From NCBI GenBank assembly GCA_017654855.1, contig CM030333.1:1984001-2048000 (forward strand): 64,000 nt of DNA. Direction: 5' to 3'. This DNA is from Podospora anserina (lineage: Eukaryota). Both the position numbers and the translations under genes were made by a program. Within the stretch, counting starts at the first letter, position 1. Every line of letters starts with the position of its first letter. Positions 1-31,987 of this stretch are shown here, piece after piece. The notes under the pieces were generated by a model. It had not been told where the DNA came from. It did not search any database and worked only from the letters and a program-made list of their open reading frames with translations.

Positions 1-2419
1 TTAACTTCGACGACGAATTGCAACCTTTCCGCAAAGCGTCCTGCCAGACGTGCCTGCCTTGTTGTAACCAGAACCGTGCTGTGTCTGCCCCTGGGAATAA
101 AATCCCAAAGGCTCCGCTCATCATGTGTGTCAGAGTCTGTGAGCCAGTCCAGCGAGGATTCATCGTCAAGACCATCCACAACCATCAGCCAATGACTGTT
201 GGCGCTTTTCTTGAGCGCGTGGCGGACGTCCCTCACAACATCTTGCGGCGAATTTGGGTCCCTGAGACGGACTTGAAGGCCCTCCGCTATACGCTTGTAT
301 GAGAACTCGAATTGCTCGGCGCTGCCCGCGTCGATCCAGTGTATGTGAGCGCCGGGGTTTGCGATACAATATCGATAAGCATATTCAACGGCGATGTGTG
401 TCTTTCTGTGGCCGGTTCAATTAGTCTGCTGCGGAATCCAGCTTTCAGTATGGACAAGTGGCATCGGAGATGAGAGTTAAAGATGCTTACCCAGTCCCTA
501 AACCTCCGGTGAGTGCTACTACTAGGCCGTTTTCGTCATGAAACTTTTTTTCAAGGAGACCTAATATGTCTGCTCGGTCCACAAAGTGACCATCCTTCCT
601 GATTGGAATTGGAAGCTTTGCCAAGTGTGGCAGGTGACTGTGAGACTGGCTGGGCTTGGAATCTGTTGAGTATAGGAGTCAGACTACTTGTCTAGTGATC
701 TGCGTGGGTACGAGTACAAATGGAAAGGAGAAGCTGTTTGGATTCCGTCAAAATGCAGCATATGGATCCAAATATTCCTAGTTCTCGGCGAATAGACCCC
801 ATGGTCTGACCAAAGCCCCGAAACCCTGATGAGGAACCACCTTACCTACTTGCTTCCTCCTCTCCTGGTTTTCCCTTGCCACCTTGGCCATTTTCACAAT
901 CTGCTGGCGGACTGAGTCGTAGTTGGCATCTTCATTGTCTTCGAAGGTGTTCATGTTGAAGTGGTCGGCATTAAGACCTGTGGAGCCGTGGCCGTAGACT
1001 GTCGCAGATGACTGCGTAACAACAAATTCCTAAAAGAGAAGTTGAGATGTTAGTGATACCCACCTGGAAGGAATGTTGGAAATGGAATTGTCAACGTACC
1101 TGAGGCAGACTTCCGATCCCACCGAGCTTCCCTATGCTGGACGCATACATCTCGTAGAAAGAGTAGATTTCGGGCTGGACCTTGACCTCATTCTTCAGTA
1201 CTTGGTTGAAGTCCTGAACAATTCCATGAAGCATTTGGTTGTTGTGCGTCATGACCTCGAGTGTCTCCAAGTGGGTCTTCACTTGAGCGGCTACGATTGC
1301 TCGATAGATATCGCCCTCCGTGCTGAGTGCGGAGTTGCCGTCCACTCCAGCATGTGGGGTACCAAGAAAGATAAGCCCAGTGATGGCGTCGATGAGTCCA
1401 GGAAAGTTGGATCTGTGGGAGTGGGCGATGTGGAAAGCCTGTATGGAATACATGTCAAGAGCTTGTCATTGATGGGTATGGTAGAGAAACACTTACACGC
1501 TGAAGTATCAAGCCGCCAAAACAATGAGCGACGAATATGATAGGTCGTTCGGTGCATTTCTAGACATGACAGAGTTAGAGCGCAGCTTGGATAGAAACTG
1601 GGGCATAGCCTACCTCTCTCAACTTCCCCATCAAAGCGTTCAGTAGCTGGTCAGCCGCCGTATTGACTGTTTGCCTGACAGCGTTTTGGCCATGCCAGGC
1701 AGACTGGTATCCAAAGTACAATATCCTTGCTCTAGGCAAATCGGCAGGCAGCATGGACTTGTCATCAAGCCAGTTGACCTTTGTTGCTTTGTGTGTCCAA
1801 GTCTTGTAGGGGTCGGCACCAATGCCGTGGATAAAGACAAGACTAGGTAGAGTGCCAAGTTAGACCGCTGCAAAGAAACATCAACTTGTACCCAAAAGAA
1901 ATGGCAAGGTTCTCACTCAATGTCGGTTTCTTCCTCGGCAGGTTCAACCAGCTTCCTCAAGCCCAAATACTTTCGCTCGACTGTAATCATTGCCGGTAGC
2001 CCGCCAGGACCCTTCGTAGTCTTTGGCTTTGAAGCATCCTCGGTTGGTCCCTTCTGCTTGACATCTGTGGATGTCTGAGCAGTGTTGCTTGGCACAACTG
2101 GTACCTCGGGACCGGGCAAAGGTTTGGAAGCTGACTTGGATTCTTGGGCAGTGACAACTGGTTTCTCGGTCGCTGGCTTTGTGGCATCTTCTGGAGTGGT
2201 ACTAGGAGCAACCTTTGTTGCACTTGAAGTCTGTGGGTCTCCCGCGGATTGACTTGTAGTAGGTGGGTCTGGCTGGGTTCCATTGGGCTTCGAGGCAGTG
2301 TTCGTAGCCGCCGTCGAGACTTGGGGAGGGCCATCCCCTGGGTTTGGGCTCTTGGGAGCCCCGCTCAACCCTGGGGTCTCGTTCTTTGCCTCGTTGGTTG
2401 TCGGCTTTGGCTGGTCCAT
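1..2419 (-). CDS. Fungal NLR-type protein, C-terminus outside the window: Pro/Thr-rich N-terminal extension + SesB/SERAC1-like alpha/beta-hydrolase + NB-ARC
   Basis: Manual splicing keeps the frame: exons 2419-1917, 1842-1614, 1559-1497, 1438-1100, 1029-846, 662-491, 405-<1. Hydrolase motifs are DLVFIHGIGADPYKTW, RPIIFVAHCFGGLIL and LIFLGTPHAG. NB-ARC motifs are Walker A ALTGGLGTGKT (split by intron 406-490), Walker B WLMVVDGLDD and VLVTTR. Confidence 0.88.
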
Positions 2420-3578
2420 CTTGAAGAAGGTATTATTCACTTAAAAATGTTGCTCAGGTAGAAAGTCTATTGAAGTGAGAAATATGATGATAGGTAGCCC
2501 ATGGGACTTAAGTCAGGAATGTCCCTATCACGGCAGAGGTCTTATAATCCTGTCTTCATGCTCTTTCAGACTGCGCGTCGTCGTGCCTCACAAGGCTCAA
2601 GCATCATGGTTTTCAGCCGCATTGTCAAATCCCCCAAGTCTGAGCCCCAAAAGCCTCCCTCACAGGGATGTTTATGCCGGTGCCTGTCTTTCCATTTTCA
2701 GACTATGATGATGCCTTCGCCGGTCAGGATTTGACCAATCGAAGTGCAAGAAAAAAGATACTTTTACCTGAAGTACTGGCCAGTTGAAAAGGGCGTTCCA
2801 GCATGAGCTGCATGCATGTGCATGACCTAAATTGCGACCTTTTTACATAACCTTGTTTGAGAAAAAGCAACCTATCAATCCCAATCACTTCTGAGCCTGA
2901 TAATGCTCTCGTGAACATCATGGTCCGGTGGAGATGAGGCACTGCCCGTGGTTCTACAAAAACCGTCTGTGCCTGAAGCGGGAAGGATTAACGGTAGCCG
3001 CCGCCCTCCCGGGCGGGTGCCATACTGGCGACAGGCACTGCCCCAACTCACAAACTCGGTCAGACGAGATAGCAGGTTGGTGGACGCCTTGCGGAAAGGG
3101 CTTGCGTCTCCACGCATAACAAATGCTGCGCGCGGGGAATGCCTGGCAAATCAATACGAACCAAGTCATCAGCCATAGGCTTGTGTGACACACCAGTGGC
3201 TTGTAGATCTCAACCACTCGTTGGTCCAGCATAGTCAAGAAATTGGCGCCATGAATTCAAGGCACACCACCAGCTAAGACCGACGACTTAATGACTAGCT
3301 ATTGTTGAGTTGGACCCAAATCACTCAGCGCTTGTAGTCTTGCTTTATTCTCTCTTTGGGGCTAAGTGCATATATGGAAATGCACAAATGCTCGCGATAG
3401 AAGTCGATCGAATGCATATTCAAGAGTTTTAGTTCAGCAGCCCCATATTTGGAACTCAGCTTCTCCAATTTCCATTTTCTCCCTTGAATCTCTTCCAACA
3501 CACAACGCCAGACTTACGTATCCAGCTGCCAGGCTACGGCGACAACCTCATCCGACACAATCAAGCCCGGTCCCACTA

Positions 3579-4508
3579 ATGGCGGCTCACGAACAAACCA
3601 GACCTACGATGAACCCACCTGCCGGAGGCACAGAAAACGAGGACACCACCGTGCCCGGTCAACCTACTATTCCGTTCAATGACAATGCGAGGATCGTCAC
3701 TTTCCTCACCACCGACCTCTCGACCGAAAGATTGAACAGTCTCTATTCGCTGCTATTCCTGACCGGCAAGCCTGAGAATATCTCCCCCTTACACCACCAA
3801 CCCATCAAAGGGCGCACGATTCTCATCACCGAAAGGCCTGATCTGCACCTCATTTGGAACATCGACCGGATTTTCATCAAACCACTTCCGAAATATCTGC
3901 TCAGCCACTCGTTTTGGAAAGCCCACCTCCACCACCGACCTGGCAGATTGGACATTACGACCCCCACGTTATGCAACCCCAAAGACACCCTCCGTCTCGA
4001 AGCCCAAGGCTTCCTGCGCACTTACTCGCGTCTCATCCGACACGAGTCGGACTTTGATATGGCCCAAAGCCTGGGACTCCTCCCCAAGAGTCTAGACTGG
4101 GCCGGTTGGTCGCATTACATACAGGCATATGCATACCTTCGGGACACCCAAGTGGCCAGACGCTATCACTACGGCGAACTTCGCTTGCCAAGACTCAACG
4201 CCTGGACAATGGTCTGCCGCGGGGAACATTACTTTCAAATTCACTACGACCAGTTGTCCTTCTTTTCCTGTTTTGGCGGGCCGTATCTGCTGCTGTTCGG
4301 TGCAGTTACGGTGATGCTCGCGGCCCTGCAGACGGCTGTGCAGATGGTGCCGGAGGGGGGTCCTTACCGGGAGTTTGCAAATAGCTTTGTGCCCATGTCG
4401 ATCGCGCTGACGGCGGCGGGGTTGCTGTCTTTTCCGGTGCTGTGGTTTTTGTTCACGATGAGGGAGCTGTGGTTGTTTATCTTCCGATATCGATCGCTTG
4501 CTTTGTGA
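3579..4508 (+). CDS. DUF6601-like fungal protein with two C-terminal hydrophobic segments
   Basis: Single-exon ORF, first plausible ATG at 3579. Motifs PLHHQPIKGRTILITERPDLHLIW, RIFIKPLPKYLLSHSFW, GFLRTYSRLIRHESDF and RRYHYGELRLPRLN match my recollection of this family. Confidence 0.7.
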   Translation: MAAHEQTRPTMNPPAGGTENEDTTVPGQPTIPFNDNARIVTFLTTDLSTERLNSLYSLLFLTGKPENISPLHHQPIKGRTILITERPDLHLIWNIDRIFIKPLPKYLLSHSFWKAHLHHRPGRLDITTPTLCNPKDTLRLEAQGFLRTYSRLIRHESDFDMAQSLGLLPKSLDWAGWSHYIQAYAYLRDTQVARRYHYGELRLPRLNAWTMVCRGEHYFQIHYDQLSFFSCFGGPYLLLFGAVTVMLAALQTAVQMVPEGGPYREFANSFVPMSIALTAAGLLSFPVLWFLFTMRELWLFIFRYRSLAL

Positions 4509-4808
4509 GACAATCTCGACAACAACACCACAACCCAATGTGTGCACATTTTGATTATAGAAAGTTGCTTTTTTCTTCACAAATCCAAGCATAAAATAGA
4601 ATCTCTTGGCATTATCAGGCTGTGATCCATTATAGGGGTATTTACACTAGCAACAACATTGCCATGAGACCCACAATTATCCCTTTGTTGGCTCCTTTTC
4701 CGTCAGCAAAAACACACTTACATAGGTAGGAAAACAATAGATTAGACTGTCAATCTGAAAACTCAATAAAAAAAATGAAAAAATGGCAAAACCATGTGTG
4801 CGTCATCA

Positions 4809-7800
4809 CTACTGTTCAATGAATCCCCTCGGTCCTTGCTGCTTTCCCTTCACAACCTTCTTTTGCCCCGGAGCCGCTGGTCCACCAATCCGCTTTGACA
4901 TCTCCTGTTCCAATAGCCTCATCCCTGCCTTGTTCTGCTCGAAATCCAATTCCTCGTCATGGGCATCCCATTGATAGTCCACCTTTTGCTGATTGTTGGC
5001 ATGTGCGAAGTTCAGCTTGTTCTGGTCTGTGCTGCGCTGGAAGTCCAACTTTCGCTGGTCCGCCTTCACATCGAGCTTGGCCATCGACTTCTTGAGCGTG
5101 ACTTGCTGCTCGCCTGTCTTCTTGACATTGTCGCGGGTTTCCTTGTTCATCTTGTGGAGCTGGTGAACCTTGTGCTTATCGACTGCCTCGGTGGCCTTGA
5201 GCTTTTGCTTTTCCATGGTTTTGTGAGTGAGGAGTTTCTGCTGGTCGATCGCTTGTGCGGCTTGAACCTTTTGCCAGTCTGTTCTCTGCTGGGTGATGAA
5301 TTTCTGGTAGTCGGCTCTCTCCTGAGTGACAAGCTTGTGGTGGTCTGTCATCTGTGTCTGGTGGAGCTTTTGCTGATCCATCATTTGGGTCTTGCGGTAA
5401 GCCTGATAGTCCAGCATCTGTGCGAGGTGGACTTTCTGATTGTCCATCACCTGCTGGTGGCGCTCGTTGATGTGATGCTTCTGAGCGAGACCATTGTTGT
5501 CTACCGCGAGAAGTCCGGCTTTGTCTTGGTTGGCGAGCACGCGGCCCCGGTGAGCAATGTGGTTCTTTTCTTCCAATGTTTGGAGTTGCTGGAGTGTGAC
5601 TTCTGCGTCTTGATGCAACTTGCTCTCATGAAGGATGTTGCTATTCTGGACCTTGTGAACTGTAGCTTGTCCTTCTTGAACCAGGCGCTGCTCGTGGCGG
5701 GTTTGCTCAATGAAAATCTTCTGGAATTGTGCTTCTTTATCCCGACGGAGCTGGTCATCATGGTCCCGCTGGATCTTCTCAAGGCGTTTGATCTCTTTTG
5801 CAAGTGTCTCAGGGTAGCCGATTGCGCCGAGTGGCTGATCAGCAGCGACGTCAGACCAGTATCTATCCTCAGCCCCCTTATCTCTCAGCATTTGCTCAAG
5901 GGCGTAGTTAAGCTCAGCTTCCTTCTCCGAATTTGATGGATGGAGGAATTTGAGATACATGGTTGGTGAGTAATGACAAGTGATCATGCTTCCCGTTTTC
6001 GGACTTGGCTCTTGCAGGGTATATACGTTGTTGTCGTTGTTGATGTCGTCCCAGACCATGTCAAGAAGAGCTTTGATCACTGCGAACGGTCGCGGATTTT
6101 CCAGAGCCAATATCAGGGCATTCTTCCATTTCGGTGTCTTCCAAAATTGAAAAAGGTCCAAACCACCTTTCTTGAGTTCAAGAAGAGTGTCCTCCATATC
6201 CACCTGACTGCCACTCCCATCACAGCAGCATGCCATTTCATGTAAGGGGGTTCGAACCCCGTGAAGGAAAGACGCAAAGTTGACAGAAAAGTTCTTGGTC
6301 GCTATCAGGGCACGGCAAACCTTGCTGTGGAGGTTCCTTGCAGCTTCGTGAAGGCTGCCATCGTTGGGCCTGTATGGCATCTTCAGCAGAGCCTTGACAA
6401 TGTCAAGGTGACCTTCGCGGGATGCATAGAACAAAGCGGAACTGTCCAAGCTGTCCCGTATTCGGGTGTTTGCCCCGGCTTTGATCAGGTGATTGACAAC
6501 TTCAGCATGCCCAAAGGCGGCGGCAAGAATGAGCGCTGTGGCCTTCGAAACCGGTGCCACAAAGTTCACATCGACTACTGTACGACCGTTATTAGCCACA
6601 TACTCAGAAGAAAGTATTGGGGCACGTCAGCCTACCTTTGGCTTCAATCAATACTAGGATGACACCTGGCTCAATTGGGCGACTTCCTGGTGGTCGAGGC
6701 AGCAAACTCCAGAGAAGGGCGGTACAAGGCTCAGGACCATAGTCGCTGCCATATAGGGCGGTTGGTTCCGTCACGTCGAATTTGACGCCCAACTTAATCA
6801 AGCGCTTCACAAGTTTGATGGAACCAGGATGGGCCGCCAGACACTCCCTGACTGGCGCGCGGAGTTGGGGTATCGTCTTTCTGAACGTCTGAACAACATT
6901 AGAGCCATCAGATGATGTGACAATGTCGATGAACAAAAGTGCTGTCTCTTCAGTCAGTGAGGTAACCATGACTTCGAAGAAAGCACCCTCAATCGTGTCC
7001 ACTGTTGCCCCACGGCCAAGAAGCATCCTCAAGACTTCAGTGTTTCCAGCCCTAACTGCCAGCTTCAGAGCTTCTCCAGACTGAAAGTTGACATTGGCGT
7101 GTCCAACACTGAGCATAGTCTCAACCATAGCCTCTGAACAACGGTGCATCAGATATGCCTCAATGGCAATAAGAAAGGCGTGGTTGGCTTGCTCTCTCCC
7201 TCGGCCACCCCACGTGAGCAGATCATGGACAAGCCAAAGATATTTGTCGTCCGGAGCGAGCCAGTCCTTAGAAGTCTGGATGACACCCTGCAAGGCATCA
7301 ATGACTGTGCGAATATCGACATAGGCAGCGAAGAGCTCGAAAGCATCCCGCTCGTAGCTTTTGGCGGCATGACAGAAGGCTTGTCTGACATCGCTCCCTG
7401 AAACACCAAGATGAAGTAGTGCGCGGATTGTCGAGAGACCAGCCGGCATTTGCCATTTAGGATTTGCTAGAGCAGCGCGGAATCCAGCCAAGACTTCTTC
7501 TGGTGACTGACTGGCATGGGGTAGAAGGTTGAGGAGTGACAGATCCAAGCTTCTACAAGCAACTTGGAACACCGACTGCTCAAGAGGTTGGCGATTGTAG
7601 CCAGCTGCATGCAGTAGTCGTTTGACAATCCCAAGGCGTACCTCACTATCTGCAAGGCCAATAGAAGCAGAGACAGCAGCCTGCAGAGACTGTAGAGTGA
7701 CTGAACCAGACAACAGGACGGAGAGAATTCCCAGCCACCCCTTTGTCGAAGCGAGCACAAGCGGCTGGCCTCCGTTGAAGTTGACATCTGCATTGGCTCT

Positions 7801-9210
7801 TTGTACCAAGAGTTGCACCAATGAAGACCGTGACGTAGGGTCGCCCTCAAGAGAATCCCCGTGGAGCGATATGGCGAGCAATCTGTTGACTGGCTCTCCC
7901 TCCAACCCAGCAGGAAGCAAAAGGCTGGCCATATCGTGGATGATTGAAATCGACCTCACCGAAGCTAGCGAGTCGACTGTTGTAGAGATGGCGAGCTTTG
8001 ACGGCCCTCCATACAGCACGGCTTTGAGCATCGGCACAGAGCGGCTCTGAATGGCAGCATGTATCACCGCCCCGTTCTTATGCTCGATTGATGAGCCATG
8101 TTGAACAAGCGACTGGATGAGCTCAACCGACCGCCTCTGTTTGACAGCTTCAAGCAAGACTTCATCTCTCACAGGACCTTTTGCCCCTGACTGTAGACAA
8201 GCAATCAGGGCCCGGTCTAGACCAGCGGTGAATGCTTCTCCCACCATGGCGTCCAAGACAAGGGGGATAGATGCCATCTCGGGTGTAGACGCAATGGCGA
8301 CAGCAATATCTTCGTGGTGACCCAATATCGCGGCTTTGAGTGCAGCTGCATTCTCAAATTTCGGGTCCGCCTGTGCGTCCAGCAAATTCTGAACCTTCAT
8401 GTAGTTGCCTGATGCTGAAGCCCGCACCAACCCCTTGTGCCGGCAGTCTCCGCACGCTCCTTTAAGCTTTCCCAGCAGGAGGGGAAGCATGTCATTCGGA
8501 CCGTTGTCCACAGCATGCAAAAACTGCTCATGCAGGGGCTCAGCATTCGCACCACCGGATATCAAGACAGACGCTTTGGCCGTATCATTCTGGGTGATGG
8601 CAAACGGAAGTGCTCTGTCGAACGCGTCTTGGTCCGCCTTCAGGGCGAGTGCATAGACGATCTCGTATGAGCAATTCTGCACGGCTCTCTCAAGAACATC
8701 ACTGCGAATATCTTCTTGATCTCGGCCGGTCATAACCTTGAAGAGGTTGGTACTCTTCCGTCGCTTGATGGAAGCATTGGCTTCGAAGTCGGTCTGCAAG
8801 GCATAGACAAGGGCCGGAGTTGCATCGGGAACTTTTCCCTCGACGATACTTGCGAGAACCGCATTGGCGTCTTTGTAGGTGAATTCTCCTTTGGACTTTC
8901 GACTCTTGTTATTGCAGTGCTCCGACATGAGAGCTTTGGCCCGGGCCACTTCTTTCTCCGAGAATTTCATGTCGGGTTTGAAGATGGTGGACACGGTTCT
9001 GCACAAGCTGGCCCTCACGCCGAAAGGTGATGCTGGTGAGGAGAGTGGAGGCGAGTAGGGGGTTATTGGTGGACTCATTGGGGGACTCATTGGTGGACTC
9101 AATGTCGGGGTAAAAGCAGGAGATGCTGAGAACATTGTTGTTGTCGATGGTGTTGGTGGTGTTGAAATTGTTCGAGTGGAGCCCACTGTGAGATGCATTG
9201 GGGCTTCCAT
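4809..9210 (-). CDS. Large (~1447 aa) ankyrin-repeat protein with a C-terminal Q/K/H-rich coiled-coil-like tail
   Basis: ORFs 6604-9210 and 4809-6599 join through a GT..AG intron at ~6578-6635. Canonical ankyrin repeats (TALILAAAFGHAEVVNHLIKAGAN, SALFYASREGHLDIVKALL) and many degenerate ones (ADVNFNGGQPLVLAS, ANVNFQSGEALKLAV) are present. Confidence 0.82.
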
Positions 9211-10028: not shown

Positions 10029-13000
10029 ATGGCAATCAACGGCCCTCTGAAAGCAGTACCTGGCTCGGCAGAGTACCTGGAGTCTCAGTTGAGTGGTCCA
10101 GAGCTTAGCTGCCGGCACTTTCCCAAGTACCGTGCCGAGGAGGACCACCGTTACCCGAGTCGTCTTGGCTTTTTCTCTTCCGATCCCGAGCCCAAGATTA
10201 CCTACCTTGACACAAAGAAGCTCTGCATTGCCTGTCTCGTAGCCACAGTCCCAGACGGATTCAACTACATCCCTCCTTCAACGCCAGCAACGTCAGCGCC
10301 CCTGCCAATCAAGACACCAGAGTTACCTTCACAGGTATTCCAAGCTGGTCATCATCGTCTCAACCGAGGGTCTCAACCGGTGCCCACGCCCAGTCACCTC
10401 ATTGCTCCACCTGTGTCAATCGACTTGGCACAGTCGCCATGGCTTCAACATGGTTGGAGCTGGATGAAGAGCCAACGGAAGCCATTTTACGTCGATGCGT
10501 TGTACCCTTTGAATGATCGGCCACCTATCGTTAGGGCAATAGTCACGAGAGATGCTGAAATAGCTACCCATTCGGGGACCCCGTACGCTGGTCAAATCAT
10601 CACTCTCAATTCAACTGTTTTGCAAACAGAGTTTCAACAATCTACCGTGACTTCGACGATAAAACAAGTCACGGTCAAAAAGAAAGAAAGCGAAGATGGA
10701 AAAAAGAAGAAAACCGCAACGTCGACAACCAAGGCGAAACCTCAAGACACAAATCGCGGCCCCAAGTCCACCTCCTCAGACATTCCGCCAGTGCCAACGC
10801 CAAAGGTCGCCGCGAACCTTCAGAATGATTTAGGACCTCGCTCTCCCAATACAGTTTCTCTGAGCAAGGCATCCAGCAAAGAAGCAACTTCAACAAGCAT
10901 CAGTTCAAAGACTGTCAGCACTACGGGCTCCGTCCAGTCGAAACCTCGTAACGGTACGTCGGATACAAAGCTAAAGGCAGAAACCGGCTTGAAGTCAGAG
11001 GGTTTGGTAAAGTCTGGGGCTCACAGTTCTGCTGCATCATCTGTCATACCAACCGCGAAGATCACAGAGGAGCGCCATATCTCCTCGTCGATTACCAACT
11101 GGCAAGACTTGATGATGCCCATGCCCCAGCCAACTCCTGGCCTGGATACCAAAGCCGTGGCTGGAAACGTCGTCAACACCGAGGCAAGTCTCGCTGGCAA
11201 GATATCCCTGGGACAAGCCAAACCTCCTGGGAAGGACACGGCCAACCTTACACAGGTAAGAAATACAAGTTTGACAGAGGTCTGCATTGATAGCTCAGTC
11301 GTAACTGACATAATCTTTCACAGGCAGCCTCAGCAACAGCAGCCGCACGGACAACCATCACACAGACGCAACAGTCAACATCTTCGTCAAGCCAACGTTA
11401 TCTTGCAAAGAACTGGAGCCGCCACGACCCTATCCCATTTCAAGACAACAGCCACATACCACCTCTGAAGGCCTACAAACGTACCGCAGGAATACAGGGG
11501 CAAGCTAGCGAATTTCTGCCTTTAGAGAAGCTATTGCCCAAGGGCACTGTTGTCGCATCCGATGAGGATCTTTCCACGTTCAAATTCCCAGACAAGTCCT
11601 CTGGTCCTCTGCAGAAGATCTTGATGTCCATTCCTCAGACATCACATGCCCCCACCGGCGGCCCATCCGTGTCACGACAATTTATCGACAGTCTCTTGTC
11701 AACTACAACATCCACAGTTCAGACAAGTGCTTCTATGGTCCAGACGAGGGGGGTTGTCGGCTTGGATGGACGCCAGAGCCCTGGTCAACAACTGCCAGCG
11801 GCGCAGGGAGCCAAGACAACATCTCTCCGACAGACAGTTGGTCAAGCCATTGGTGGTCTTACCTCCACAAAGGCAACGATGCCCTTGCCAACCAAAGCAC
11901 CGGCTCAGTCATCTATCCCCGGATCACAAGCAGTGCAGACAGCTGCGTCAGGTATTTTCGCTGCTGCAAAACAGACCATCAGCTCAAAAGAACAAACCCG
12001 GAGTGCCCCCCAAGAGGACAAAGATAAGACCAAACAAAGAGTTCCGCCTGTCGCTGCTAAGCCATCGCAAGTCAAGGAGTCTTCAGGGGCAGTCAAGAAG
12101 AACAGTGACACAAAGTCTAAAGAGACAAAGGTGAAGACAGAACAGACCAAGACATCCTCCACCCTCGCCGCCTCTGCCAATAAAACATCCACGAGTTCCA
12201 AAAACACAAGCGAGTCTACCAAGGCCAAGAAGGAAACTTCTAGTGCTGAGACGAAGACGCGTGGTGCGAACAAGCGGAGCGGGGGCGGGGATGGGAAGTC
12301 TCTGGTGGGCTCTGGGCTGAATAAGTTGAAGGACGTTGTAGCCGCAGTTGCGGAAGGCTCCGCCGGTCTTCACGAGCCCAAGTCCAAGCAAGACGGAGGC
12401 AAGAATAACAAGACTGTAAAGAGCGATGCTAAAAAGAAGGCTACCCATGGGGTGAAGAAAGAGGTCAAAAGCAAGGTCAAGCAAGGGATCAAGAAAGACA
12501 GCAAGACGGCTAAGCCTCCAAAGGCAAGCGGCAACAGGTCTATCAAGGAGTCGAAAGGAAAGGAGAAAGTCAAAAAGAGTATGGCGTCTACGAAGTCAGA
12601 GTCTCGAAGTGTCTCCAAGAGGCAAGAGATGAAGAGCAAGACAACAAAGACAAAGACTACCACTACTAAGGCTGGGGAGAAGACGGAGAAGAAGACCGAG
12701 GAGGAGACTGAAGAGGATACGGAAGATGAGACTGAAGAGGAGACCGAGGATGAGACTGAAGAGGAGACTGAGGTTGATGATGAGGATGAGAGTGAGGATG
12801 AGAGTGGGGAAGAGACTGAGGATGAGAGTGGGGATGAGAGTGAGGATGAGAGTGAAGATAAGACTGAGAGTGAGGAGAAGTCCAGCGGTGAGTTATCAGG
12901 CCATAAAAGATTGTCAGACGTTAAAAAGGAATCAACTGGCGACAACGACGACGCAGATGGCTTCAAGGAGGATGGTGACTCTGATTTTTCAAATCCGAAC

Positions 13001-16048: not shown

Positions 16049-16323
16049 TGCGAATGATGGGCTTGGGAGCTCGTACCACCAGGGCAAGGTGCTGGCCAGG
16101 ATAGAATTATATCAGAATTAAGTACCCAGACAGTCATCATATTCATGAATTCAATAGTTCATTCAACAGTAGGCAGTGAAAAGAACGCCTTTTCTTGAAG
16201 TCATGTCTGACTGGTTTTAGAGGTTATGAAAGAGCGTGATAATGTCCTCTCTGATGCATGAAATCTCCTAAAGAGTGTTTCCAGTTGGTGTTTGGTCTTT
16301 TACCCTTGGTCCCACAACTACAA

Positions 16324-23199: not shown

Positions 23200-25061
23200 C
23201 TATATGTTCAGCCTCCTCACCAGCTCTATATCCGATTCCCGCCGCTGAAGCCCACTCCCACCCCTATCATATATGGACGTTGTCACTGGGCCGTACCCCT
23301 CCACTTTCTTCCGCAAAAAGCCGAGCCAGACGAAAGATAAAAGTATCAGTCCCACAGCGACAATAGCCATACCCAGTGACACACCCACAACCCCACCAAG
23401 TGGCATCTCTAACCTGAAGCCTACGAAGCTCAGACCAATGAAGAGACCTGAGAGAACGGTGAATATCAAGAGCATATAGATCGTGCTGGCAGTGGTGAGG
23501 GCTGTCATGAACTTTATGAGACGGTTGCCAACCCGCCCGATGGAAGGCCAGTTGATGCTGCGAGCGATTGTGCTCGGGATGGTGTGGGTGACAGCGGTCT
23601 GGACGGTGGAGAAGTATAGCGCAAGGTATGTGACAGCGGTGACGCCTATGGACACTCCCAGCCATCGTGGCCAGGTGTATTGGTCTTGAAATTCCTACCA
23701 AGATGTGTGAGTTATGAACAAGGGAAATAAGTTAAGGCACTTACAATTACGTTCATCCCAAAAACAGCAGCAATGAAGCTCAGTGGTATAAAGAAGAAGG
23801 CCAGCTGTGTAAGCTTCGATATCGACTCGGCTTGGGCGATGGCCCGCTGGCTCTCTAAAATGCTGAGGGTCGACATAAGCGCTTGAAAAGCCGTTTCGAC
23901 TCTATTTCGAATCGCCTCGAGTTCAGCGTTGATCTGGTTGAGTCGCCATGCTATCACTTGCTCCGAGTCATCGCCGTATGGCGGGACCAACTGACGGGGC
24001 CTCTCCTTGGTGTGCTGCTCAAGTTTCTCCATCATATACCGGACAGAGACCCGAAGGTTGGCGAGGGTGTTCCGCCATCGGCCAAGATAATCTCTCCACT
24101 GCGGCACCGAGGAGCGCAGCTGCTCGTCTTCGCCCAAATACAATTCGACCTCGTCCAACCCCCGACCCAGCTCGAACAGGATGGTTGGCATATCATCCAC
24201 CACAAAACCAAGCATCGTTTGTATGAGCCAAGTATCGTTTTGTCTTCCTCGAAACGGACTCGGGGCATCCAGCGCCCTTTTGATACGGTCTAGGGCTGTC
24301 GTCTCGAGGATAAAACAGGGCTGATTCGGCAGAGGTTTGGAGCCTATGTCTCCAGACCACAAGTTGAGGTTCACCTGCCTGACTGTATGCATTCTTTGTG
24401 GATCGACCAGAAGGCACCCAACAAGTTGACCATTCTCCCGTCTCGAGTAATGAAACGACATGCGCGTTGAGGCATGATGAAGAACAACACTCTCCATCCT
24501 CTGTGATGGGTGAAGCGGATGGTATGGTCTATATACCCCCTCCGGAAACGTTCCCCATCGACAATGGCTCTCGTATGTGGATTGGGGGTCGGCAGTTTGG
24601 TCTGTATCCCATGGCGTTCCCGCGCGAATCTTCTTCTCCATTTTCCAACCTTCAGACTTTTGCAGGGCTGGTTCTGACCAGCTGACAAAGAAACTACCGG
24701 TAGATCTGTCCTGGTGGAAGCCCATTTTGTGTCCTGAGCCGCGTCCAAGATGGGCTGGGAAGAACTCTGGGGGCAGGTACAACCCCATATTTGCCAAACG
24801 CGTTGCCTGAAGGTCGCTATGAGCTTCCACGAGGTATATCAGATCGTAATCTTGAGAGGGTTCCAGGGCTTCGTCAGGGTTGGGTTTGGTCTGTGACAAG
24901 TCGACGGCGGTGAAACTGGTCTTTCCATCATTTTGGACTTGAAGTCGCAGACATCTGGAGGTGGCTTCCGAAGGTTCTGAGGGTTTGGCGGGCTCCCGGC
25001 CGATAACGGGATCACCCAGCAATCTCACCGAGTCAAGCGACGAGGTCCTTCTTTTGAGCAT
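23200..25061 (-). CDS. CorA-like (2-TM-GxN) membrane protein of the fungal expanded type
   Basis: Intron 23695-23744. The segment SILESQRAIAQAESISKLTQLAFFFIPLSFIAAVFGMN carries the GMN signature and is followed by several hydrophobic helices. Confidence 0.82.
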
Positions 25062-25849
25062 TCTGACTTAATTGATGCTTCCTGGATTTCAGACATTAAG
25101 GATCATGGGAACTTGCTTTGTGATAAATGCGGCTGACCTCTATTGCCCCTTGATACTCTCCCCTGTCCCACGACTGTTCTCAGCCGCACGCGGGGTCGTT
25201 CGTGCTCATGGAGATCATCTTCAAACTGTTGGCACGCCTCTCCGGGCGAAGACAATAATGTTTGTGGAGAACACTCCCGTCTTTCCTACGATTTCCTCGG
25301 TTGCCGTCTGACGGGATTAGGATTCAATGTGATACCCGTGGGTACATGGCAAAGCGTAAGTTGGGACTGGCGGGCCGTTCAACGTGCCTTCAAGATTTGG
25401 CATGCACACCCCTAACCCTTGGCCAACGAAGTGTGGCTGGAAGTGGTCCGCGCACCAGCACTTCAGCGCGTGTCTGCCTTCTTCTCAAGCTGGGATAAGT
25501 GTTTATCCACCAAATGTCCCCAACTATCGCCGGGCACGATAACGTCTTGGGCCCCAATTGGTTTCTTTCTGTCGACAAGTCACATGAGGGGTCTCTGGGG
25601 CAATAGTATTGGATCGCCTTACACACCACCACTTGCTGGCAGGATGCCTTGACCACTTCATGTGGTGCTAGGTAAGGCAATCAGCCCTTCCCTAGGGTTC
25701 ATATGACTCGGGGATTATCATGGATTTGAATAAGATATATCCTCACACTTCCCTTGGCCGGCGCACGCGGAATACTGACTCTTTTTTTGTTCTAAAGAAG
25801 CATTACACCGCATGCGATCTGTTTGGCCGCTTCCCTTTCAAGTCCATTG

Positions 25850-27370
25850 ATGCTGGGGATCATGGCATCACAGCCCTCTTGTTGGGGCATATTCCCCACA
25901 CCAGCCAACAATGAGCTCACCAGACACACTATCTACCATGATCTTAACCCAGCCTGCCAGGAAATCCGCCTGCTCAGAGTTCATCTTGAGGAAAAAGACG
26001 GCTTTATCCGGTGTGAGCTCCTACCAGCAGCTAGTCTGTCCAACATCAGAGGGCAGTACACGGCAATATCCTACTGCGCGGGAGACCCTAGGAGAACCAA
26101 AAAAATATTCGTCAACGGCATGCCGTTCAATGTCTTTGAGAATCTTGCCCATGTCTTGGAAATGACAAGGAACTTCTGGACCAAGACATTTCCCGATAAA
26201 GAGTGCATAATCTGGGCCGACCAAATCTGCATTAACCAGTTCAACCTTGCTGAGCGCTCACACCAGGTCGGTTTCATGAAGGGTATTTACTCTTCAGCGG
26301 CGGAGACCTTGATATGCCTTTCCACCACCGACGTTGACCCTCGTGGAGTTGAGTGGCTGGTGAAGCTACACCAAAGTGTCGATCCTGATGGCGACTTCTA
26401 CCAGTACTACTTCCACCTTGAGTACTACCTCCGAACCAACCTGGCCAACAAGCAATTTGCCGACGATTGGTTTGCATTTTACGACGTCTTCAACAGCCCA
26501 TGGTGGATGCGAACTTGGGTCTATCAAGAGTTTATTTCATCCTCCAACATCTATTTTTTGTATGGAAAATCATCTGTTCCCTGGAAAAGACTGTCAGAGG
26601 TACTCCCGACACTTCAAAAATACAGCCACTTCCCATACTTTGGCCCGGCTATTACTGAACGCCAAGCACAAGTCGCAGACACAAAGAACATTGTCAACTT
26701 TTTCGTAATCAGTAAACTTCGGTTTGATCGGGTTGGGCCATTCGACTTGATGGATCTGCTTTCTCAATCTCGACATCTTCAGAGCAGCGATAGCCGCGAC
26801 GGGATCTATGCTTTCCTTGGTCTTGTTCGTGAGACCTACGGGATCATTCCAGACTATTCCCCTGAGAACACTATGGAACGGCTTTTGGTGGATATTGCAA
26901 CGCGGATTGTCTTGCAAGACAAAACATTGGATATTCTCTCAGATGCGAGCAGGGTGAGAGGAGAGCTGTCGCCACGACTTCCCTCTTGGGTTCCAGATTG
27001 GACCACAAAGACTTGTGTCAGCCTTATTCCAAGAACCATCCGAGATACAAGTGACGGATCAGTCGCTTTATTTCCTCGAATCGTTCAATCAGGGAAGCTA
27101 GAACTTCAAGGTTTCCATATCGGTGTTTTCAGAAATGGAAAGCTTGGGTGGTACTTCCCCAACAGTCGGGACAGATGTCGTCATGATGGTGAAGGTCGCG
27201 AGGAGTTGTGGGATATTGTCGGGGCTCAAGGTCCATTTGTTTTGCGTCACGTGGGGAATCAGTATCATTTTGTCAGGGAAGCACAGAGAAATAAACCTGC
27301 TGGATATAATAGCGTGGAGGATGCTGTTCAGAGACATGGATTGCAAGCGCAGACAGTGGTACTCTCTTAA
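25850..27370 (+). CDS. HET-domain (HET-6-like) heterokaryon-incompatibility-type protein
   Basis: HET motifs: EIRLLRV, YTAISYCAGDP, IWADQICINQFNLAERSHQVGFMKGIYSSA, PWWMRTWVYQE, SDSRDGIYAFLGL and LPSWVPDW. Single exon; start at ATG 25850 or 25862. Confidence 0.92.
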   Translation: MLGIMASQPSCWGIFPTPANNELTRHTIYHDLNPACQEIRLLRVHLEEKDGFIRCELLPAASLSNIRGQYTAISYCAGDPRRTKKIFVNGMPFNVFENLAHVLEMTRNFWTKTFPDKECIIWADQICINQFNLAERSHQVGFMKGIYSSAAETLICLSTTDVDPRGVEWLVKLHQSVDPDGDFYQYYFHLEYYLRTNLANKQFADDWFAFYDVFNSPWWMRTWVYQEFISSSNIYFLYGKSSVPWKRLSEVLPTLQKYSHFPYFGPAITERQAQVADTKNIVNFFVISKLRFDRVGPFDLMDLLSQSRHLQSSDSRDGIYAFLGLVRETYGIIPDYSPENTMERLLVDIATRIVLQDKTLDILSDASRVRGELSPRLPSWVPDWTTKTCVSLIPRTIRDTSDGSVALFPRIVQSGKLELQGFHIGVFRNGKLGWYFPNSRDRCRHDGEGREELWDIVGAQGPFVLRHVGNQYHFVREAQRNKPAGYNSVEDAVQRHGLQAQTVVLS

Positions 27371-28097: not shown

Positions 28098-31000
28098 ATG
28101 AGGACCCGCGCCTATGCATTGCTCAGCAGCATGTTCACGACCAAACTTCGAGTTAGGACGAACGTTGCAGCATGCTACAAACCCATACCTCTCAGGACTG
28201 GATTCTTGGTTATCATGGCACTGTAGTACGTTCACTCCCTGACTGAATTTACCTATCTTACAGCTGACAACGACTGGGAAGTATCTGCTGTCTTCTCGCT
28301 CTCGTGGAAACAGCTCTTCAAAAGTTTTCCATCTCTCATGATCGACGAACCGTGCCCAATGACACCGTCTCTTTCGGGTACGGGTCTTTTGTCAGCGCTC
28401 CGCTTATCCCGCCGCGACAAACAACGCGTGCCATATATGCTCTACCAGATCTACAACCAAGATGGACACCTGCAAAAGGATTAAGAGCCGCCAACACCAC
28501 GGTCAATGGTACAGTCCCCAACCCCTCAACAATCGCACCCAGTTCAGCATCTCCGGTCGTCAACCCAACACCTACAGAGTCAGGTCCACCAGCCTGGCTG
28601 GAGGCACTAGAAGGGCCATTTCGATCTGCTGGGCGGAGCGCCTACTTTTGGGATGAAAGTTTGTCGTCAGGAAACGGTACGAAAGAAATCTTTACAGAAA
28701 GGAGCCAACTCAATGGTCGAGCACCCATTCCACCCCTCGACAACTGGGGCCGGCTACTGGGCCCACGTCACAGCTTTCGCTTTTTGGTTACGGCAGGGGA
28801 CTATATCAGCCCCGATGCAAGCTCTTTTCGTAACCTTCTGGCCATATGGCACGACCCCTTGGACTCCCAAGCTAGCCTTGCAGTCTTGAGACGTGATCTA
28901 GGCCTGATTGACGAGACATACGAAACCCCAGGAAAGGACGAGCCAGACTACCTCAGGAATTCCCCTCAGTCCTGCACAGTGGTGTGCAGTGGGTCAGCAC
29001 TTATCTTTTTGGACCAGACTTGTTGGTTGTCGTGGTATATCACCTCATTGATGTGGACTTATACCTGTACAGACACTGTGCAGTTCCAAAACACGCATTG
29101 TTTTAGCTTGGTTGCAGACTTCAACAATGGACACAAAGATCAGCCATGCAGCAGTCCGGATCCCAGTGGTTTGGAAGGAGATGAAGCGCAGAGCTTAGTA
29201 TTTGAGTCAAATCGTCATGAAGAACAAGACAACAAGAGCAGTACTGCTTCTGATACAGTCCAAAGAACAACCTTTGCATCATCGATGACCTCTTCATCCT
29301 CTGCAGCTTTTACATCATCGGTAGCCTTTTTATCGTCACCAGCTTTTTCATCGTCAATAAGCTTTCCGTCGTCAACAACTTTTTCATCAACAACCTTTTC
29401 ATCATCACCAGCTGTTTCATCATCATCAGCAGCATTGCTGACCTTTCAGCCGCCCATGACAATCATCACCAGCATTACTCATAGCGGTTTCAACCATGGC
29501 TCCTTCAGCACATTGACCGAAAGTAATAGTCAAACCGACAACACGGTTAGCCAGCCCACAATACAAACATCGACTTCATCACCAGACAAGAATAGCATTA
29601 AGCCGTCAAAATCTCAACCAGAGGAGTTCGCAGACATTGGTAGTGGCCATATTGGTACAACCGTGGAAAGCAAAGGTGCAAGTAGGATCAACCCCGATAG
29701 CATAACATCGACCAGTCGCAGTCTCGAGGCAAGCGACCAGTCAACAACTCCCTCTAAGAGTTTCACGGCCACTGCCTCTACTTCCCAGGTCACACAAGAA
29801 TCAGGGGTTCGGGATAGCCTTTCAAGGATTAGCGAAACAAAACAAACAACAACACCACACTTCAATGCGTCCCAAATTACGACGCCAACAACCCTATACG
29901 CTGACTCTATACCGATAACATTATTGCACATAAAAAGCTTATCATATCCAGATGCGACACAATTCCGACAATTGGTTGGGTCTCAATCAAGTCAAAAACG
30001 TCATGATAAGACAATCAGCGGTGCTTGGCAATCAACAACATTTCCTAGCATGGAGAAACCCAATAGTGCAGGCCAATCACCAGTTTCAGACACGAAAACG
30101 AGGCCCCCAGCCGTCACACTGCCCAAAGAGCCTAATATGAGCGATAGGTCAATCCGCTCTTTAGTTGTCACAACAGAAGCTTCTCACAGTCTTGATTTTC
30201 TCGAGGACGTCGCCAGCCTAGCTCTGGCACAAAAGGCGACAGTCAGCCAACTTACAGGCTCGGTGAATGGAACAAGGATAATCACTGCATTACAGTCGTA
30301 CAAAGAAGCCATCAATCTGTCCACAACGACTTCTTTTCCTACGGATGCCAGGACTTTGGCCGCGATAGCCATCCCTACTTCCGTCACAGACCTACATTCT
30401 TCGCCATCGACAAGTCATAACCCAACAGAAACGGTCAGTTCGGTGATAGGCGGAGCACAAATACCGCCTCTTTTTCACCCTGTTTCATTGGGAGACTATT
30501 TCCTAGCTGCATACGTGCCTGTAATGATCACGTTGCCCTTGGCAGCTTTGGCACAAATATTGAGCATGGAGGTCAAAGCACTTGCCCCCTTCCACGCACT
30601 CAGTAGACCGATGGGGGCGGCAGCTACAGACTCCCTGTGCCTCCCCACAGGTGGCTTTCCGGGGATCTATAAAAGCATTTGCCTTTGCTTCCGGCGTCAA
30701 GGTCGACAGCCCTTATTATTTCTGGTCGATCTGCTTGTCTGGACCACGGCCATCATTGCCTCGCTCTCTAGCGAGGCCTTCGGCATCAAGCTCCATGGCA
30801 AATGCAAACACGACGATTTCAGAGGATGCTACATGGGAATTGCAGTATACGGCACTCAAAGCCGCATCATTCAGAGTCTACTGGGCTTCGCCTTATGTCT
30901 TATTCTGCTTATTATGTATCGGCTCCGAAACTGGCAAACCGGCATTGATGTGCCCCATGGTCGAAGTGTCGCAGCCATATCTATGCTCGTTACTGAACCA

Positions 31001-31987
31001 TGCACACGCAGAGTCTTGCAGCACCTCAGGCCCGATTCCCACACCGGGAGACTCAGTAACAAGGACATGGCACGCCAGCTTGAAGGGTACATCTTTAAAT
31101 TAGCACCCATCTCATCACACCTGACTGGTTACAAGCAGCTTGTTTCCTCAAGGCCCGCACAAGCATTACGCGAACCCAAACCACAAAAGACACCAACCAC
31201 ACGCCGCTCCAGAATCACGGAATTCGTTGACCACCTTCCACAAGGCTTTCTCCTTCAATTCCTCGTCATCCTCGGTACACTCAGCTTTATAATTCTGATA
31301 ATATGCTATGAAACAATTACGGGAGCCGATTCTCCGTTTGAGCACTTCATGAACTCTCAGGGCTTCGGTGTGAAGCTCCTTTCTGCAGGACTGGGTGTAG
31401 TGATATCTCTCTTTTGGGATGATTATTTCGCGCGTGAGTTGTCTCTGACATTTCTAACCCAGCAGTTGAACCCAAGCTAACCCGTCATCCCGACAAACAA
31501 GAGGTTGCACTCAAAGAGCCAGACCGCCAATTCAACCGCTGGCCGCGCCCTGCCAAAGCCTCTTCCGTTTTCCTAGTCTCCCCACCGACCACTGCCTTTG
31601 CCGCCCTCACTCCTGCTACCCTTCACAGACGCCAGTTCTTTCTCATGTGGGTTGCCTTTGTCACCGTTCTGTCAAAGATCACGCCATTGTTGCTATCCAA
31701 CATCCCATTCAGCCCCTGGCTCACCTGGGAGAACACATCGTGTCTGTACTTGGACCGCGGTTGGGATCTTGACAACAATGATCCTCACATTGGGGTACGG
31801 TCTTATACTTGTCAAGTACTCCCGATGGCCGTCGCATCCAGGAAGACTCGGTGGCATCATCTACTACCTGTTGACAATGCCGTCTAACAGCAACGGAAGA
31901 ACACCGATTTTGCGGTTTCTTGATGATGGAATGGCACCAGGAAACCGTGTGGAGGATATTGAACTTGGAAATATCCAACGTCGTTGA
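28098..31987 (+). CDS. DUF3433-like multi-pass membrane protein with a long Ser/Thr-rich region; apparent +1 frameshift at ~31732 (disrupted allele or sequence error)
   Basis: Intron 28226-28281 gives YKPIPLRTGFLVIMALYICCLLALVE; a second intron lies at ~31434-31501. Motifs include YFLAAYVP, FMNSQGFGVK and LLLSNIPF. The expected continuation THRVCTWTAVGIL is in another frame. Confidence 0.7.

What the first reader, a model, noticed from the sequence alone, without database searches (positions are those of the whole stretch)
1..31987. Candidate fungal non-self-recognition / cell-death island
Seen: ~32 kb contains no recognisable housekeeping gene, but it holds an NLR (hydrolase-NB-ARC), a HET-domain gene, a giant ankyrin protein, three membrane proteins of uncharacterised families (DUF6601-like, CorA-like, DUF3433-like) and a giant low-complexity protein. 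Established: NLR, HET and ankyrin domains make up fungal incompatibility and immune pathways, and effectors are often encoded beside their receptors. Inference: the uncharacterised neighbours may be unrecognised parts of one multi-gene defence system, analogous to bacterial defence islands.
Basis: partly seen in the sequence, partly recalled or inferred. Interest (0 to 1): 0.72.

Follow-up and report, generated by a model that had tools for sequence, protein, structure and literature searches.

The report
Fungal immune receptor's unrecognised membrane partner
The 32-kb 'island' is not one system, but its left end holds a gene pair, kept together across distant fungi, in which an immune receptor with a hydrolase head sits back-to-back with a small membrane protein of unknown fold that may be the receptor's missing partner.

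Summary
The real unit is smaller. DUF6601 (309 aa, two predicted membrane helices, no solved fold found) is paired with an NLR that carries an N-terminal SesB-like alpha/beta-hydrolase: 6 of 7 DUF6601 loci in this genome, and 21 of 25 non-redundant metagenome loci (19 head-to-head), while the NLR's nucleotide-binding and sensor parts change. A four-gene version (NLR, DUF6601, giant ankyrin, giant low-complexity protein) is induced 9-46-fold in published incompatibility data; the first three, plus a large hypothetical gene, are adjacent in Colletotrichum too. The hydrolase often has Cys instead of Ser at the nucleophile, and RNA contigs show hydrolase-only splice forms. Best reading: NLR-activated hydrolase signals to DUF6601 as a membrane effector. 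Functional linkage is well supported by genomics; the direction (effector, inhibitor, substrate) and cell death are inferred. I found no description of the pairing in ten literature searches.

The parts
1..2419 (-). 5' part of SesB-like hydrolase / NB-ARC / TPR NLR (1244 aa; Pa_2_4500 + Pa_2_4490 in the old split annotation); continues to about G000:C3:1982161. Elbow AHCFGG (Cys for Ser), Walker A GGLGTGKT, Walker B VVDGLD. Core member.
   Evidence: DUF676, NB-ARC and TPR on the sister-species orthologue P0121
663..845 (-). Intron spliced in run X15 but read through in X17 and X20; read-through gives a 461-aa hydrolase-only protein whose intron-encoded tail is conserved in two other taxa
   Evidence: tables 5 and 8; tails
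2420..3578 (.). 1159-bp divergent intergenic region between NLR and DUF6601 (shared promoter inferred)
3579..4508 (+). DUF6601 protein (309 aa, Pa_2_4510): ~200-aa soluble domain with near-invariant R79, H90, K101, D158, R195, R202, R205, N207, then two predicted membrane helices (236-254, 275-293). Core member, proposed effector.
4809..9210 (-). Giant ankyrin/helical-repeat protein with Q-rich C-terminal tail (1447 aa, identical to PODANS_2_4520; intron 6578-6635). Lineage-specific member.
10029..14902 (+). Giant low-complexity protein (1601 aa, Pa_2_4530; intron 11256-11323), basic then strongly acidic; 818 bp head-to-head with the ankyrin gene. Probable lineage-specific member.
16324..17371 (-). 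GNAT acetyltransferase (289 aa, Pa_2_4540); bystander, not induced; marks the boundary
17921..20221 (+). 693-aa protein with Zn2Cys6-like motif; bystander
20464..21693 (-). TauD-family dioxygenase (Pa_2_4550); bystander
23200..25067 (-). CorA-like membrane protein (Pa_2_4560); probably bystander (ends approximate)
25850..27370 (+). HET-domain protein (506 aa, Pa_2_4570); one of at least 145; induced late; probably bystander
28268..31987 (+). DUF3433 membrane protein (Pa_2_4580; ends approximate); bystander

Best explanation
A two-gene NLR signalling unit: the TPR sensor detects a non-self or damage cue, NB-ARC oligomerisation switches on the N-terminal SesB-like alpha/beta-hydrolase (inferred from the general NLR mechanism), and the hydrolase makes a product, or transfers a group, that activates DUF6601, a two-helix membrane protein acting as the downstream effector (membrane permeabilisation and cell death or compartment shutdown). 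In this lineage a second divergent pair (giant ankyrin plus giant disordered protein) is attached as a slightly later-induced accessory. Shown: gene anatomy, linkage, co-induction (published data), two predicted membrane helices. Inferred: enzyme activity, direction of signalling, pore formation, death. Confidence that the pair is functionally coupled is about 0.85; the number given is for this specific direction.
For: Linkage: 6 of 7 own-genome DUF6601 loci have a SesB-NLR within 7 kb, 4 head-to-head; outside the window 5 of 6 against 0.05 expected, P=0.0002. 21 of 25 non-redundant metagenome loci, 19 head-to-head; 27 loci hit in 85 kb of proximal upstream flank against 1 in 124 kb of distal flank. 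The hydrolase is the constant: partners are NB-ARC-TPR, NACHT-ANK, NACHT-HEAT and NACHT-WD40, at least 7 NBD switches on the DUF6601 tree; no third family recurs. Consecutive accessions in five named relatives; same neighbours in Colletotrichum destructivum and NB-ARC-TPR beside DUF6601 in Curvularia. Co-induction in het-R/het-V incompatibility: 41.9, 46.2, 9.4, 26.5, 23.9-fold, then none for the GNAT; 4 of 4 securely identified DUF6601 genes are induced against 21% of all genes. 141 of 147 family members have exactly two predicted membrane helices and the soluble domain has many near-invariant Arg/His/Lys/Asp. One paralogous DUF6601 has an in-frame stop beside an open NLR frame, which fits a dispensable output better than an essential antidote.
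Against: No experiment links the proteins. Only 6 of at least 21 SesB-like loci in this genome have a DUF6601 neighbour, and 1 of 7 own and 4 of 25 metagenome DUF6601 loci lack the hydrolase. One of the five outside pairs (C8) was found by looking beside DUF6601, not in the genome-wide search; without it 4 of 6. Co-induction is not general: Pa_7_3540 is induced but its NLR Pa_7_3550 is not; Pa_6_7270 is induced but Pa_6_7260 (mapping inferred) is not. 44% of genes change in that reaction and 15 runs of 7 or more adjacent induced genes exist. Sequence co-divergence is modest (Mantel rho 0.41) and expected from shared descent. Cys at the elbow is enriched but not diagnostic (21 of 35 linked, 3 of 14 unlinked, Fisher p=0.025, not phylogenetically independent). 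The ankyrin has two unlinked paralogues among ordinary genes, and homology of CDEST_09717 to the low-complexity protein was not tested.
Confidence: 0.45

Rival explanations
1. DUF6601 is a membrane-anchored inhibitor (immunity protein) that keeps the NLR's hydrolase, or its hydrolase-only splice form, from damaging the cell's own membranes.
For: One-way dependence, shared divergent promoter and co-induction fit a toxin-antidote pair; a free hydrolase isoform is made.
Against: At least 15 of 21 SesB-like loci lack it; one DUF6601 carries a stop beside an open NLR; a close copy of that hydrolase at C3:3893215 has no DUF6601; near-invariant charged residues over 30% identity suit a small-ligand or catalytic site better than a fast-changing inhibitor surface.
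Confidence: 0.2
2. DUF6601 is a partner enzyme, substrate or guarded bait: a membrane enzyme of new fold that works with the (Cys-type, possibly acyl-transferring) hydrolase, or the protein whose tampering the NLR monitors.
For: Invariant H90, D158, K101 and several Arg could be an active site; Cys nucleophile enrichment; a co-induced NUDIX gene lies between NLR and DUF6601 at one locus.
Against: A guard model predicts linkage to the sensor type, yet sensors change freely while the hydrolase stays; NUDIX seen at 1 locus only.
Confidence: 0.2
3. No functional coupling: an old back-to-back pair copied as a block, in a versatile, co-induced chromosomal region.
For: Head-to-head pairs are hard to separate; versatile regions are co-induced in incompatibility; some paralogous pairs are not co-induced.
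Against: Linkage persists across ~30% identity, several fungal classes, tandem and inverted arrangements and NBD/sensor exchange; no other neighbour persists.
Confidence: 0.1
4. One reading: all genes in 1-32 kb form one multi-gene defence system.
For: In the RNA-seq incompatibility column 4 of the 5 listed right-half genes are also up (1.2-3.8 log2); CorA-like genes lie near NBD genes more than a uniform null gives (2 of 12 within 7 kb, P=0.017; 4 of 12 within 30 kb, P=0.006).
Against: No co-occurrence of DUF6601 with HET, CorA or DUF3433 in this genome (0 of 6 each within 7 kb) or in 15 metagenome loci (HET 1, others 0); microarray shows GNAT flat, DUF3433 down, HET late; none of these named among the Colletotrichum neighbours; the uniform null ignores clustering of accessory genes.
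Confidence: 0.05

Closest known systems
Fungal SesB-like (lipase-domain) NLRs (Dyrka 2014; Bonometti 2025, PMC12258605)
   Same: Tripartite SesB-like/NB-ARC/TPR architecture; SesB-like is the one N-terminal domain found with all NBD types.
   Different: Treated as self-contained 'all-in-one' receptors; here a subset has a dedicated second gene, and many have Cys at the elbow. That paper looked for NLR-NLR head-to-head pairs and found them rare; 0 hits for PF20246 or DUF66 in its main text.
Amyloid-coupled NLR-effector pairs (nwd2/het-S, PNT1/HELLP, het-eN/sesA/sesB; PMC3321046, PMC12881547)
   Same: Two- or three-gene clusters of NLR plus effector, with changing NBD and repeat types.
   Different: There the NLR lacks an enzyme head and signals through shared amyloid motifs; here the NLR has its own hydrolase, the partner ends in membrane helices, and no PP/sigma-type motif was found.
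Fungal protease-NLR / gasdermin clusters (het-Q type; PMC12881547)
   Same: Enzyme-headed sensor encoded beside a membrane-acting partner: the closest logic.
   Different: Enzyme is an alpha/beta-hydrolase, not S8 or CHAT; partner has two hydrophobic helices and gave no gasdermin match. The database name 'subtilisin-like serine protease' on many DUF6601 proteins is not backed by Pfam.
Prokaryotic enzyme -> messenger -> two-helix membrane effector systems (recalled: CBASS SAVED-2TM, CRISPR Cam1/CorA)
   Same: Soluble conserved domain plus two membrane helices next to a signal-producing enzyme.
   Different: No PADLOC hit for DUF6601, no structural match; no messenger known. Resemblance recalled, not tested.
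Pa_2_4470-4530 co-induced run (Bidard 2013 Table S10, PMC3689799)
   Same: The same genes, listed as one of 15 runs of adjacent induced genes, with labels sesB-like, PB002574, ankyrin (labels shifted by one row).
   Different: Listed only; no linkage analysis or function; the NLR was split in two gene models.

Membership tests
SesB-like fungal NLR | N-terminal SesB/DUF676-type alpha/beta-hydrolase | tested here: met
   HG, elbow, LGTPH and His motifs; DUF676 on orthologues P0121-P0123
SesB-like fungal NLR | NB-ARC or NACHT with intact Walker A/B | tested here: met
   GGLGTGKT and VVDGLD in the 1244-aa form; NB-ARC on P0121
SesB-like fungal NLR | C-terminal repeat sensor | tested here: met
   TPR_12 E 6e-28
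Serine lipase | Ser at the nucleophile elbow | tested here: not met
   AHCFGG in the window and its orthologues
Serine lipase | Lipolytic activity | not testable with these tools
   needs assay
Amyloid-coupled NLR-effector pair | Adjacent NLR and effector genes | tested here: met
Amyloid-coupled NLR-effector pair | Shared amyloid motif at NLR N-terminus and partner C-terminus | tested here: not met
   crude motif screen found none in DUF6601 or at the NLR N-terminus; DUF6601 ends in membrane helices
Protease-gasdermin cluster | S8 or CHAT protease domain on the sensor | tested here: not met
   Pfam on the orthologue shows DUF676, NB-ARC, TPR only
Protease-gasdermin cluster | Gasdermin fold in the partner | tested here: inconclusive
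   no match listed
Messenger-gated two-helix membrane effector | Two membrane helices after a soluble domain | tested here: met
   141 of 147 members by hydropathy; helical hairpin in the model
Messenger-gated two-helix membrane effector | Known ligand-sensing domain | tested here: inconclusive
   best Z 3.3, rmsd 4.4, 93 aligned; no PADLOC hit
Messenger-gated two-helix membrane effector | Ligand binding and membrane permeabilisation | not testable with these tools
   needs assay
het (allorecognition) locus | Divergent alleles segregating within the species | tested here: inconclusive
   NLR aa 81-1040 only 66-91% identical to three sister species while flanks are 92-100%; AU p 0.18; no variant in the NLR in three RNA runs; no population sample
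het (allorecognition) locus | Incompatibility phenotype | not testable with these tools
   PMC13449251 states the nine P. anserina het loci are all characterised
32-kb multi-gene defence system | All families co-occur in other genomes | tested here: not met
32-kb multi-gene defence system | Presence/absence variation among close relatives | tested here: not met
   DUF6601-to-HET accession offset is 7 in four sister species, as in the window; conspecific strains not sampled
32-kb multi-gene defence system | Co-regulation of all genes | tested here: inconclusive
   microarray: left block only; RNA-seq: weaker rise also in 4 of 5 listed right-half genes

The most novel reading that the evidence does not exclude
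A third way for fungal NLRs to reach an executioner, beside amyloid templating and proteolysis: an NLR-borne Cys/Ser alpha/beta-hydrolase makes a lipid or nucleotide-like signal (or acylates its target) and so gates a membrane effector of a fold not yet solved; alternative splicing of the same gene releases a free hydrolase as amplifier; ankyrin and disordered proteins seal or remodel the dying compartment.
Probability: 0.25. Interest if true: 0.92.

Novelty: new variant of a known kind. Interest (0 to 1): 0.78.

Why it matters
SesB-like domains are among the commonest heads of fungal NLRs (PMC12258605, passages), yet their involvement in cell death is described as only indirect (PMC9815663, passage) and I found no substrate or partner in my searches. 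A conserved partner gene makes that directly testable in a model fungus, at a locus already known to be strongly induced in incompatibility. It also gives a role to a large fungal family (1547 clusters at E<1e-10) that is often mislabelled as a subtilisin and whose confident model (pLDDT 94) matched no solved fold.

Tried and rejected
Complex prediction of hydrolase with DUF6601 (Cercophora pair; alignments were not used by the tool): no answer, score 0.00; no evidence either way. Fold searches: full model matched only generic helical hairpins (best Z 7.6, rmsd 3.6, 66 aligned); N-domain best Z 3.3; Foldseek no E<=0.001; absence does not prove a new fold. Atlas: no informative hit for DUF6601 (best 0.77) or the low-complexity N-terminus. 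PDB sequence search with the hydrolase profile: one hit at E 0.98. Run listing: no RNA holder on record, holders are chosen for holding the stretch, so not used for presence/absence; lack of cover in run X21 not used. No RIP signature or GC anomaly in the block. No shared promoter motif beyond 8-9-mers (no control run). Fusions: one S41-peptidase-DUF6601 model and one merged Colletotrichum model, none with an NLR among 10 long members scanned; the 'longer' search was not run for DUF6601. Bacterial induction: none for the left block; Pa_2_4500 down at 6 h. Septal-pore (SPA-like) role for the low-complexity protein: composition fits disorder, no sequence support. My CorA exon model was out of frame and is not used. 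Dropped rows: 23 of 48 metagenome clusters had under 1.5 kb upstream; only the best 80 of 220 confirmed loci were returned; L057 and L124 elbows unreadable; the ankyrin search scored only 7999 candidates of 471-1502 aa. Literature searches: DUF6601 in 1 paper, PB002574 in 0, gene tags in no relevant main text; the library lacks most subscription papers, and bioRxiv supplements and Bidard supplement file 1 could not be seen.
Full report
Setting. The window is G000:C3:1984001-2048000 of a 35.96-Mb, 9-contig genome. Its ankyrin protein is identical to PODANS_2_4520 and sister-species orthologues carry tags 204510 and 204570, so this is Podospora anserina chromosome 2, Pa_2_4490-4580. Left of the NLR lie ordinary genes (T5orf172, Mn-SOD, INO80); right of 32 kb lie a monooxygenase, ATPase, F-box and ribosomal genes.

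Observation. Contigs of three probable RNA runs give GT-AG introns for the NLR, ankyrin, low-complexity, GNAT and regulator genes (only 1-20000 was laid). The NLR is 1244 aa: low-complexity leader, SesB-like hydrolase, NB-ARC with intact Walker motifs, TPRs. The left block is two divergent pairs: NLR/DUF6601 (1159 bp apart) and ankyrin/low-complexity (818 bp).

The whole-island idea. The genome has at least 145 HET, 13 CorA-like and 13 DUF3433 loci. Outside the window, 0 of 6 DUF6601 loci have HET, CorA or DUF3433 within 7 kb; 17 of 1116 32-kb bins hold HET plus an NBD or SesB hit. In 15 non-redundant metagenome DUF6601 loci with at least 5 kb on both sides, GNAT, regulator, TauD, CorA, DUF3433 and low-complexity homologues occur 0 times, HET once, and the single ankyrin hit is the repeat part of an NLR. 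The accession offset from DUF6601 to HET is 7 in four sister species, as in the window, so the block is collinear and not presence/absence-variable at that level. Against my reading: CorA-like genes are near NBD genes more than a uniform null predicts (2 of 12 within 7 kb, P=0.017; 4 of 12 within 30 kb, P=0.006), though that null ignores clustering of accessory genes.

The real core. Of 7 DUF6601 loci in this genome, 6 lie beside an NLR, 4 head-to-head and 2 in tandem, and all six NLRs begin with a SesB-like hydrolase although they are NB-ARC-TPR (3), NACHT-HEAT (2) and NACHT-ANK (1). Excluding the window, 5 of 6 against 0.05 expected (P=0.0002); one of these hydrolases was found only by looking there, so 4 of 6 on the blind list. 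The converse is weaker: 6 of at least 21 SesB-like loci. The metagenome scan returned the best 80 of 220 confirmed loci; they fall into 48 clusters at 85% nucleotide identity, 25 with at least 1.5 kb upstream, of which 21 have the hydrolase and 19 are head-to-head; 30 of 34 at a 93% cut and 19 of 22 at 70%. As an internal control, 27 loci are hit in 85 kb of proximal upstream flank and 1 in 124 kb of distal downstream flank. An all-against-all of flanking ORFs finds no other recurrent family. The pairing spans the DUF6601 tree, with at least 7 NBD-type changes (labels partly from P-loop motifs). Named genomes agree: consecutive accessions in three Podospora species, Cercophora samala and Apiosordaria backusii, and a table in PMC10512319 (one passage seen) shows DUF6601 beside an NB-ARC-TPR gene in Curvularia.

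The four-gene version. The ankyrin orthologue (34% identity over 1125 columns) is two or three accessions from DUF6601 in five Colletotrichum assemblies of one species complex. Supplement rows of PMC11338638 give the order CDEST_09714 (DUF6601), 09715 ('TPR, alpha/beta hydrolase', 1058 aa), 09716 (ankyrin), 09717 (hypothetical, 1916 aa), all low in two libraries and the first three detected mainly in the third; strands are not given and homology of 09717 to the low-complexity protein is untested; flanking rows name none of the right-half families, though four are hypothetical. Window and Colletotrichum DUF6601 fall in one clade (98). So three, probably four, genes stay together across two orders in changed order. 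Two ankyrin paralogues in this genome sit among ordinary genes; neighbours of the Xylariales orthologues are unknown.

Expression (published tables, read by gene tag). Bidard 2013 Table S1 (rows seen): maximum fold change in het-R/het-V incompatibility 41.9 and 46.2 for the two halves of the NLR, 9.4 DUF6601, 26.5 ankyrin, 23.9 low-complexity; then GNAT flat, TauD not called (3.7 at 4 h), CorA-like 2.9, HET 15.7 but late, DUF3433 -2.1. NLR and DUF6601 are up at 30 min, the ankyrin lags. Table S10 (whole file seen) lists Pa_2_4470-4530 as one of 15 runs of 7 or more induced genes; my term searches of the main text found no comment on it. Lamacchia 2016 file 1 has an unlabelled column that I read as incompatibility RNA-seq from idi markers and methods: 7.6, 7.6, 5.9, 4.2, 4.4, then blank, 1.8, 1.2, 3.1, 3.8, so the boundary is softer there and DUF3433 conflicts; bacteria do not induce the left block. 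Other DUF6601 genes are induced too (Pa_1_15310 3.9 with its NLR 3.4 and an intervening NUDIX 9.8; Pa_1_16430 6.0; Pa_7_3540 4.7), but Pa_7_3550 is not, and Pa_6_7260 (mapping inferred) is not while Pa_6_7270 is. With 21% of genes up and over half of HET and STAND genes among them, induction shows membership of the incompatibility programme, not of one complex.

Anatomy of the parts. DUF6601 folds confidently (pLDDT 89; N-domain 94) into a mostly helical soluble domain and a helical hairpin; 141 of 147 members have two hydrophobic segments, and R79, H90, W93, K101, D158, R195, G199, R202, R205, N207 are 97-100% conserved. I could not test whether they form one pocket. The hydrolase keeps the catalytic His motif but has Cys at the elbow in 21 of 35 linked and 3 of 14 unlinked copies (hand tally; p=0.025; 9 changes on the tree). 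From general enzymology (recalled), Cys-elbow alpha/beta-hydrolases work through thioesters and include acyl-transferring enzymes. The gene also yields short forms: intron 663-845 is read through in two of three runs (461 aa), and acceptors 425 and 428 shift the frame (542-543 aa); only acceptor 405 gives full length. The intron-encoded tail is conserved in the 458- and 464-aa Cercophora and Apiosordaria models, which suggests a selected hydrolase-only isoform. The NLR's middle (aa 81-1040) is only 66-91% identical to three sister species, whose hydrolases are nearly identical to each other, while its ends, DUF6601 and ankyrin are 92-100%; the hydrolase tree groups the sisters with Cercophora (83/83) but does not reject the species grouping (AU p 0.18): old allele or fast evolution, undecided.

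Mechanism. Because DUF6601 follows the hydrolase and not the sensor, I place it on the output side: sensor, oligomer, hydrolase on, DUF6601 gated, membrane damage (0.45). Inhibitor (0.2) and partner enzyme, substrate or bait (0.2) remain; mere co-inheritance 0.1; whole island 0.05. Only anatomy, linkage and expression are shown.

Comparison. It works like the known fungal sensor-effector gene pairs (PMC3321046, PMC12881547; passages seen) but fails membership of the amyloid-coupled and protease-gasdermin kinds on tested features. Surveys of fungal NLRs (PMC12258605, PMC13449251, PMC9815663; passages by term search) looked at NLR-NLR pairs, repeats or amyloid neighbours; my terms found no mention of this partner. 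Ten searches of a library that lacks most subscription papers are the limit of that claim; supplements of those surveys were not read.

Verdict. The 32-kb island as a whole is ordinary versatile chromosome; its left 15 kb holds a conserved, apparently undescribed NLR-partner module. New variant of a known kind; interest 0.78.

Noticed in passing
window 405-845 (-): Three alternative acceptors (405, 425, 428) and a read-through intron give hydrolase-only NLR products; the intron-encoded tail is conserved in two other taxa.
   Followed up: partly
window 1-2180 and L010:8700-10000: NLR aa 81-1040 is 66-91% identical to sister species while everything around is 92-100%: possible ancient allele or accelerated evolution.
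   Followed up: partly
L018:8381-9226 (G000:C1:5405881-5406726): NUDIX hydrolase gene (Pa_1_15300) between an NLR and DUF6601, co-induced 9.8-fold in incompatibility; seen at this locus only.
   Followed up: partly
L021:731-733 (G000:C7:3182731): In-frame TGA in a DUF6601 gene whose neighbouring NB-ARC-TPR frame is open for 1159 aa.
   Followed up: no
L029:660-5770 (G000:C2:161163-166270): DUF6601 and its NACHT-HEAT NLR both carry several stops, next to retroelement remains: the pair decays together.
   Followed up: no
L114 (G000:C3:3893170-3893850): Hydrolase with the same 21-residue elbow segment as the C7:3180936 copy, before an NB-ARC, without DUF6601 nearby.
   Followed up: no
L024:8630-9775 (Pa_7_3540 cluster): Three near-identical copies in P. 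pseudocomata and two in Triangularia setosa: recent duplication or movement of this DUF6601.
   Followed up: no
L094 and L060: One DUF6601 flanked by SesB-like hydrolase genes on both sides.
   Followed up: no
P0138: Kalmusia model fusing a CPAF-like S41 peptidase to DUF6601; single case, may be a merged model.
   Followed up: no
proteins: Many DUF6601 proteins are named 'subtilisin-like serine protease' in databases though Pfam lists only PF20246.
   Followed up: partly
window 12843: 12-bp repeat-unit insertion in the low-complexity gene in runs X15 and X17.
   Followed up: no
window 15438-16004 (+): 188-aa open frame with no Pfam hit and no RNA-contig cover; sister-species gene counts leave no room for a gene here.
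   Followed up: partly
G000:C6:4640103-4647949 and C8:427952-432530: Small clusters of two or three SesB-like hydrolase genes, some with Cys elbows, without DUF6601.
   Followed up: no
L011:6508-7272: Long KKTEE-type tandem repeat ORF upstream of the window.
   Followed up: no
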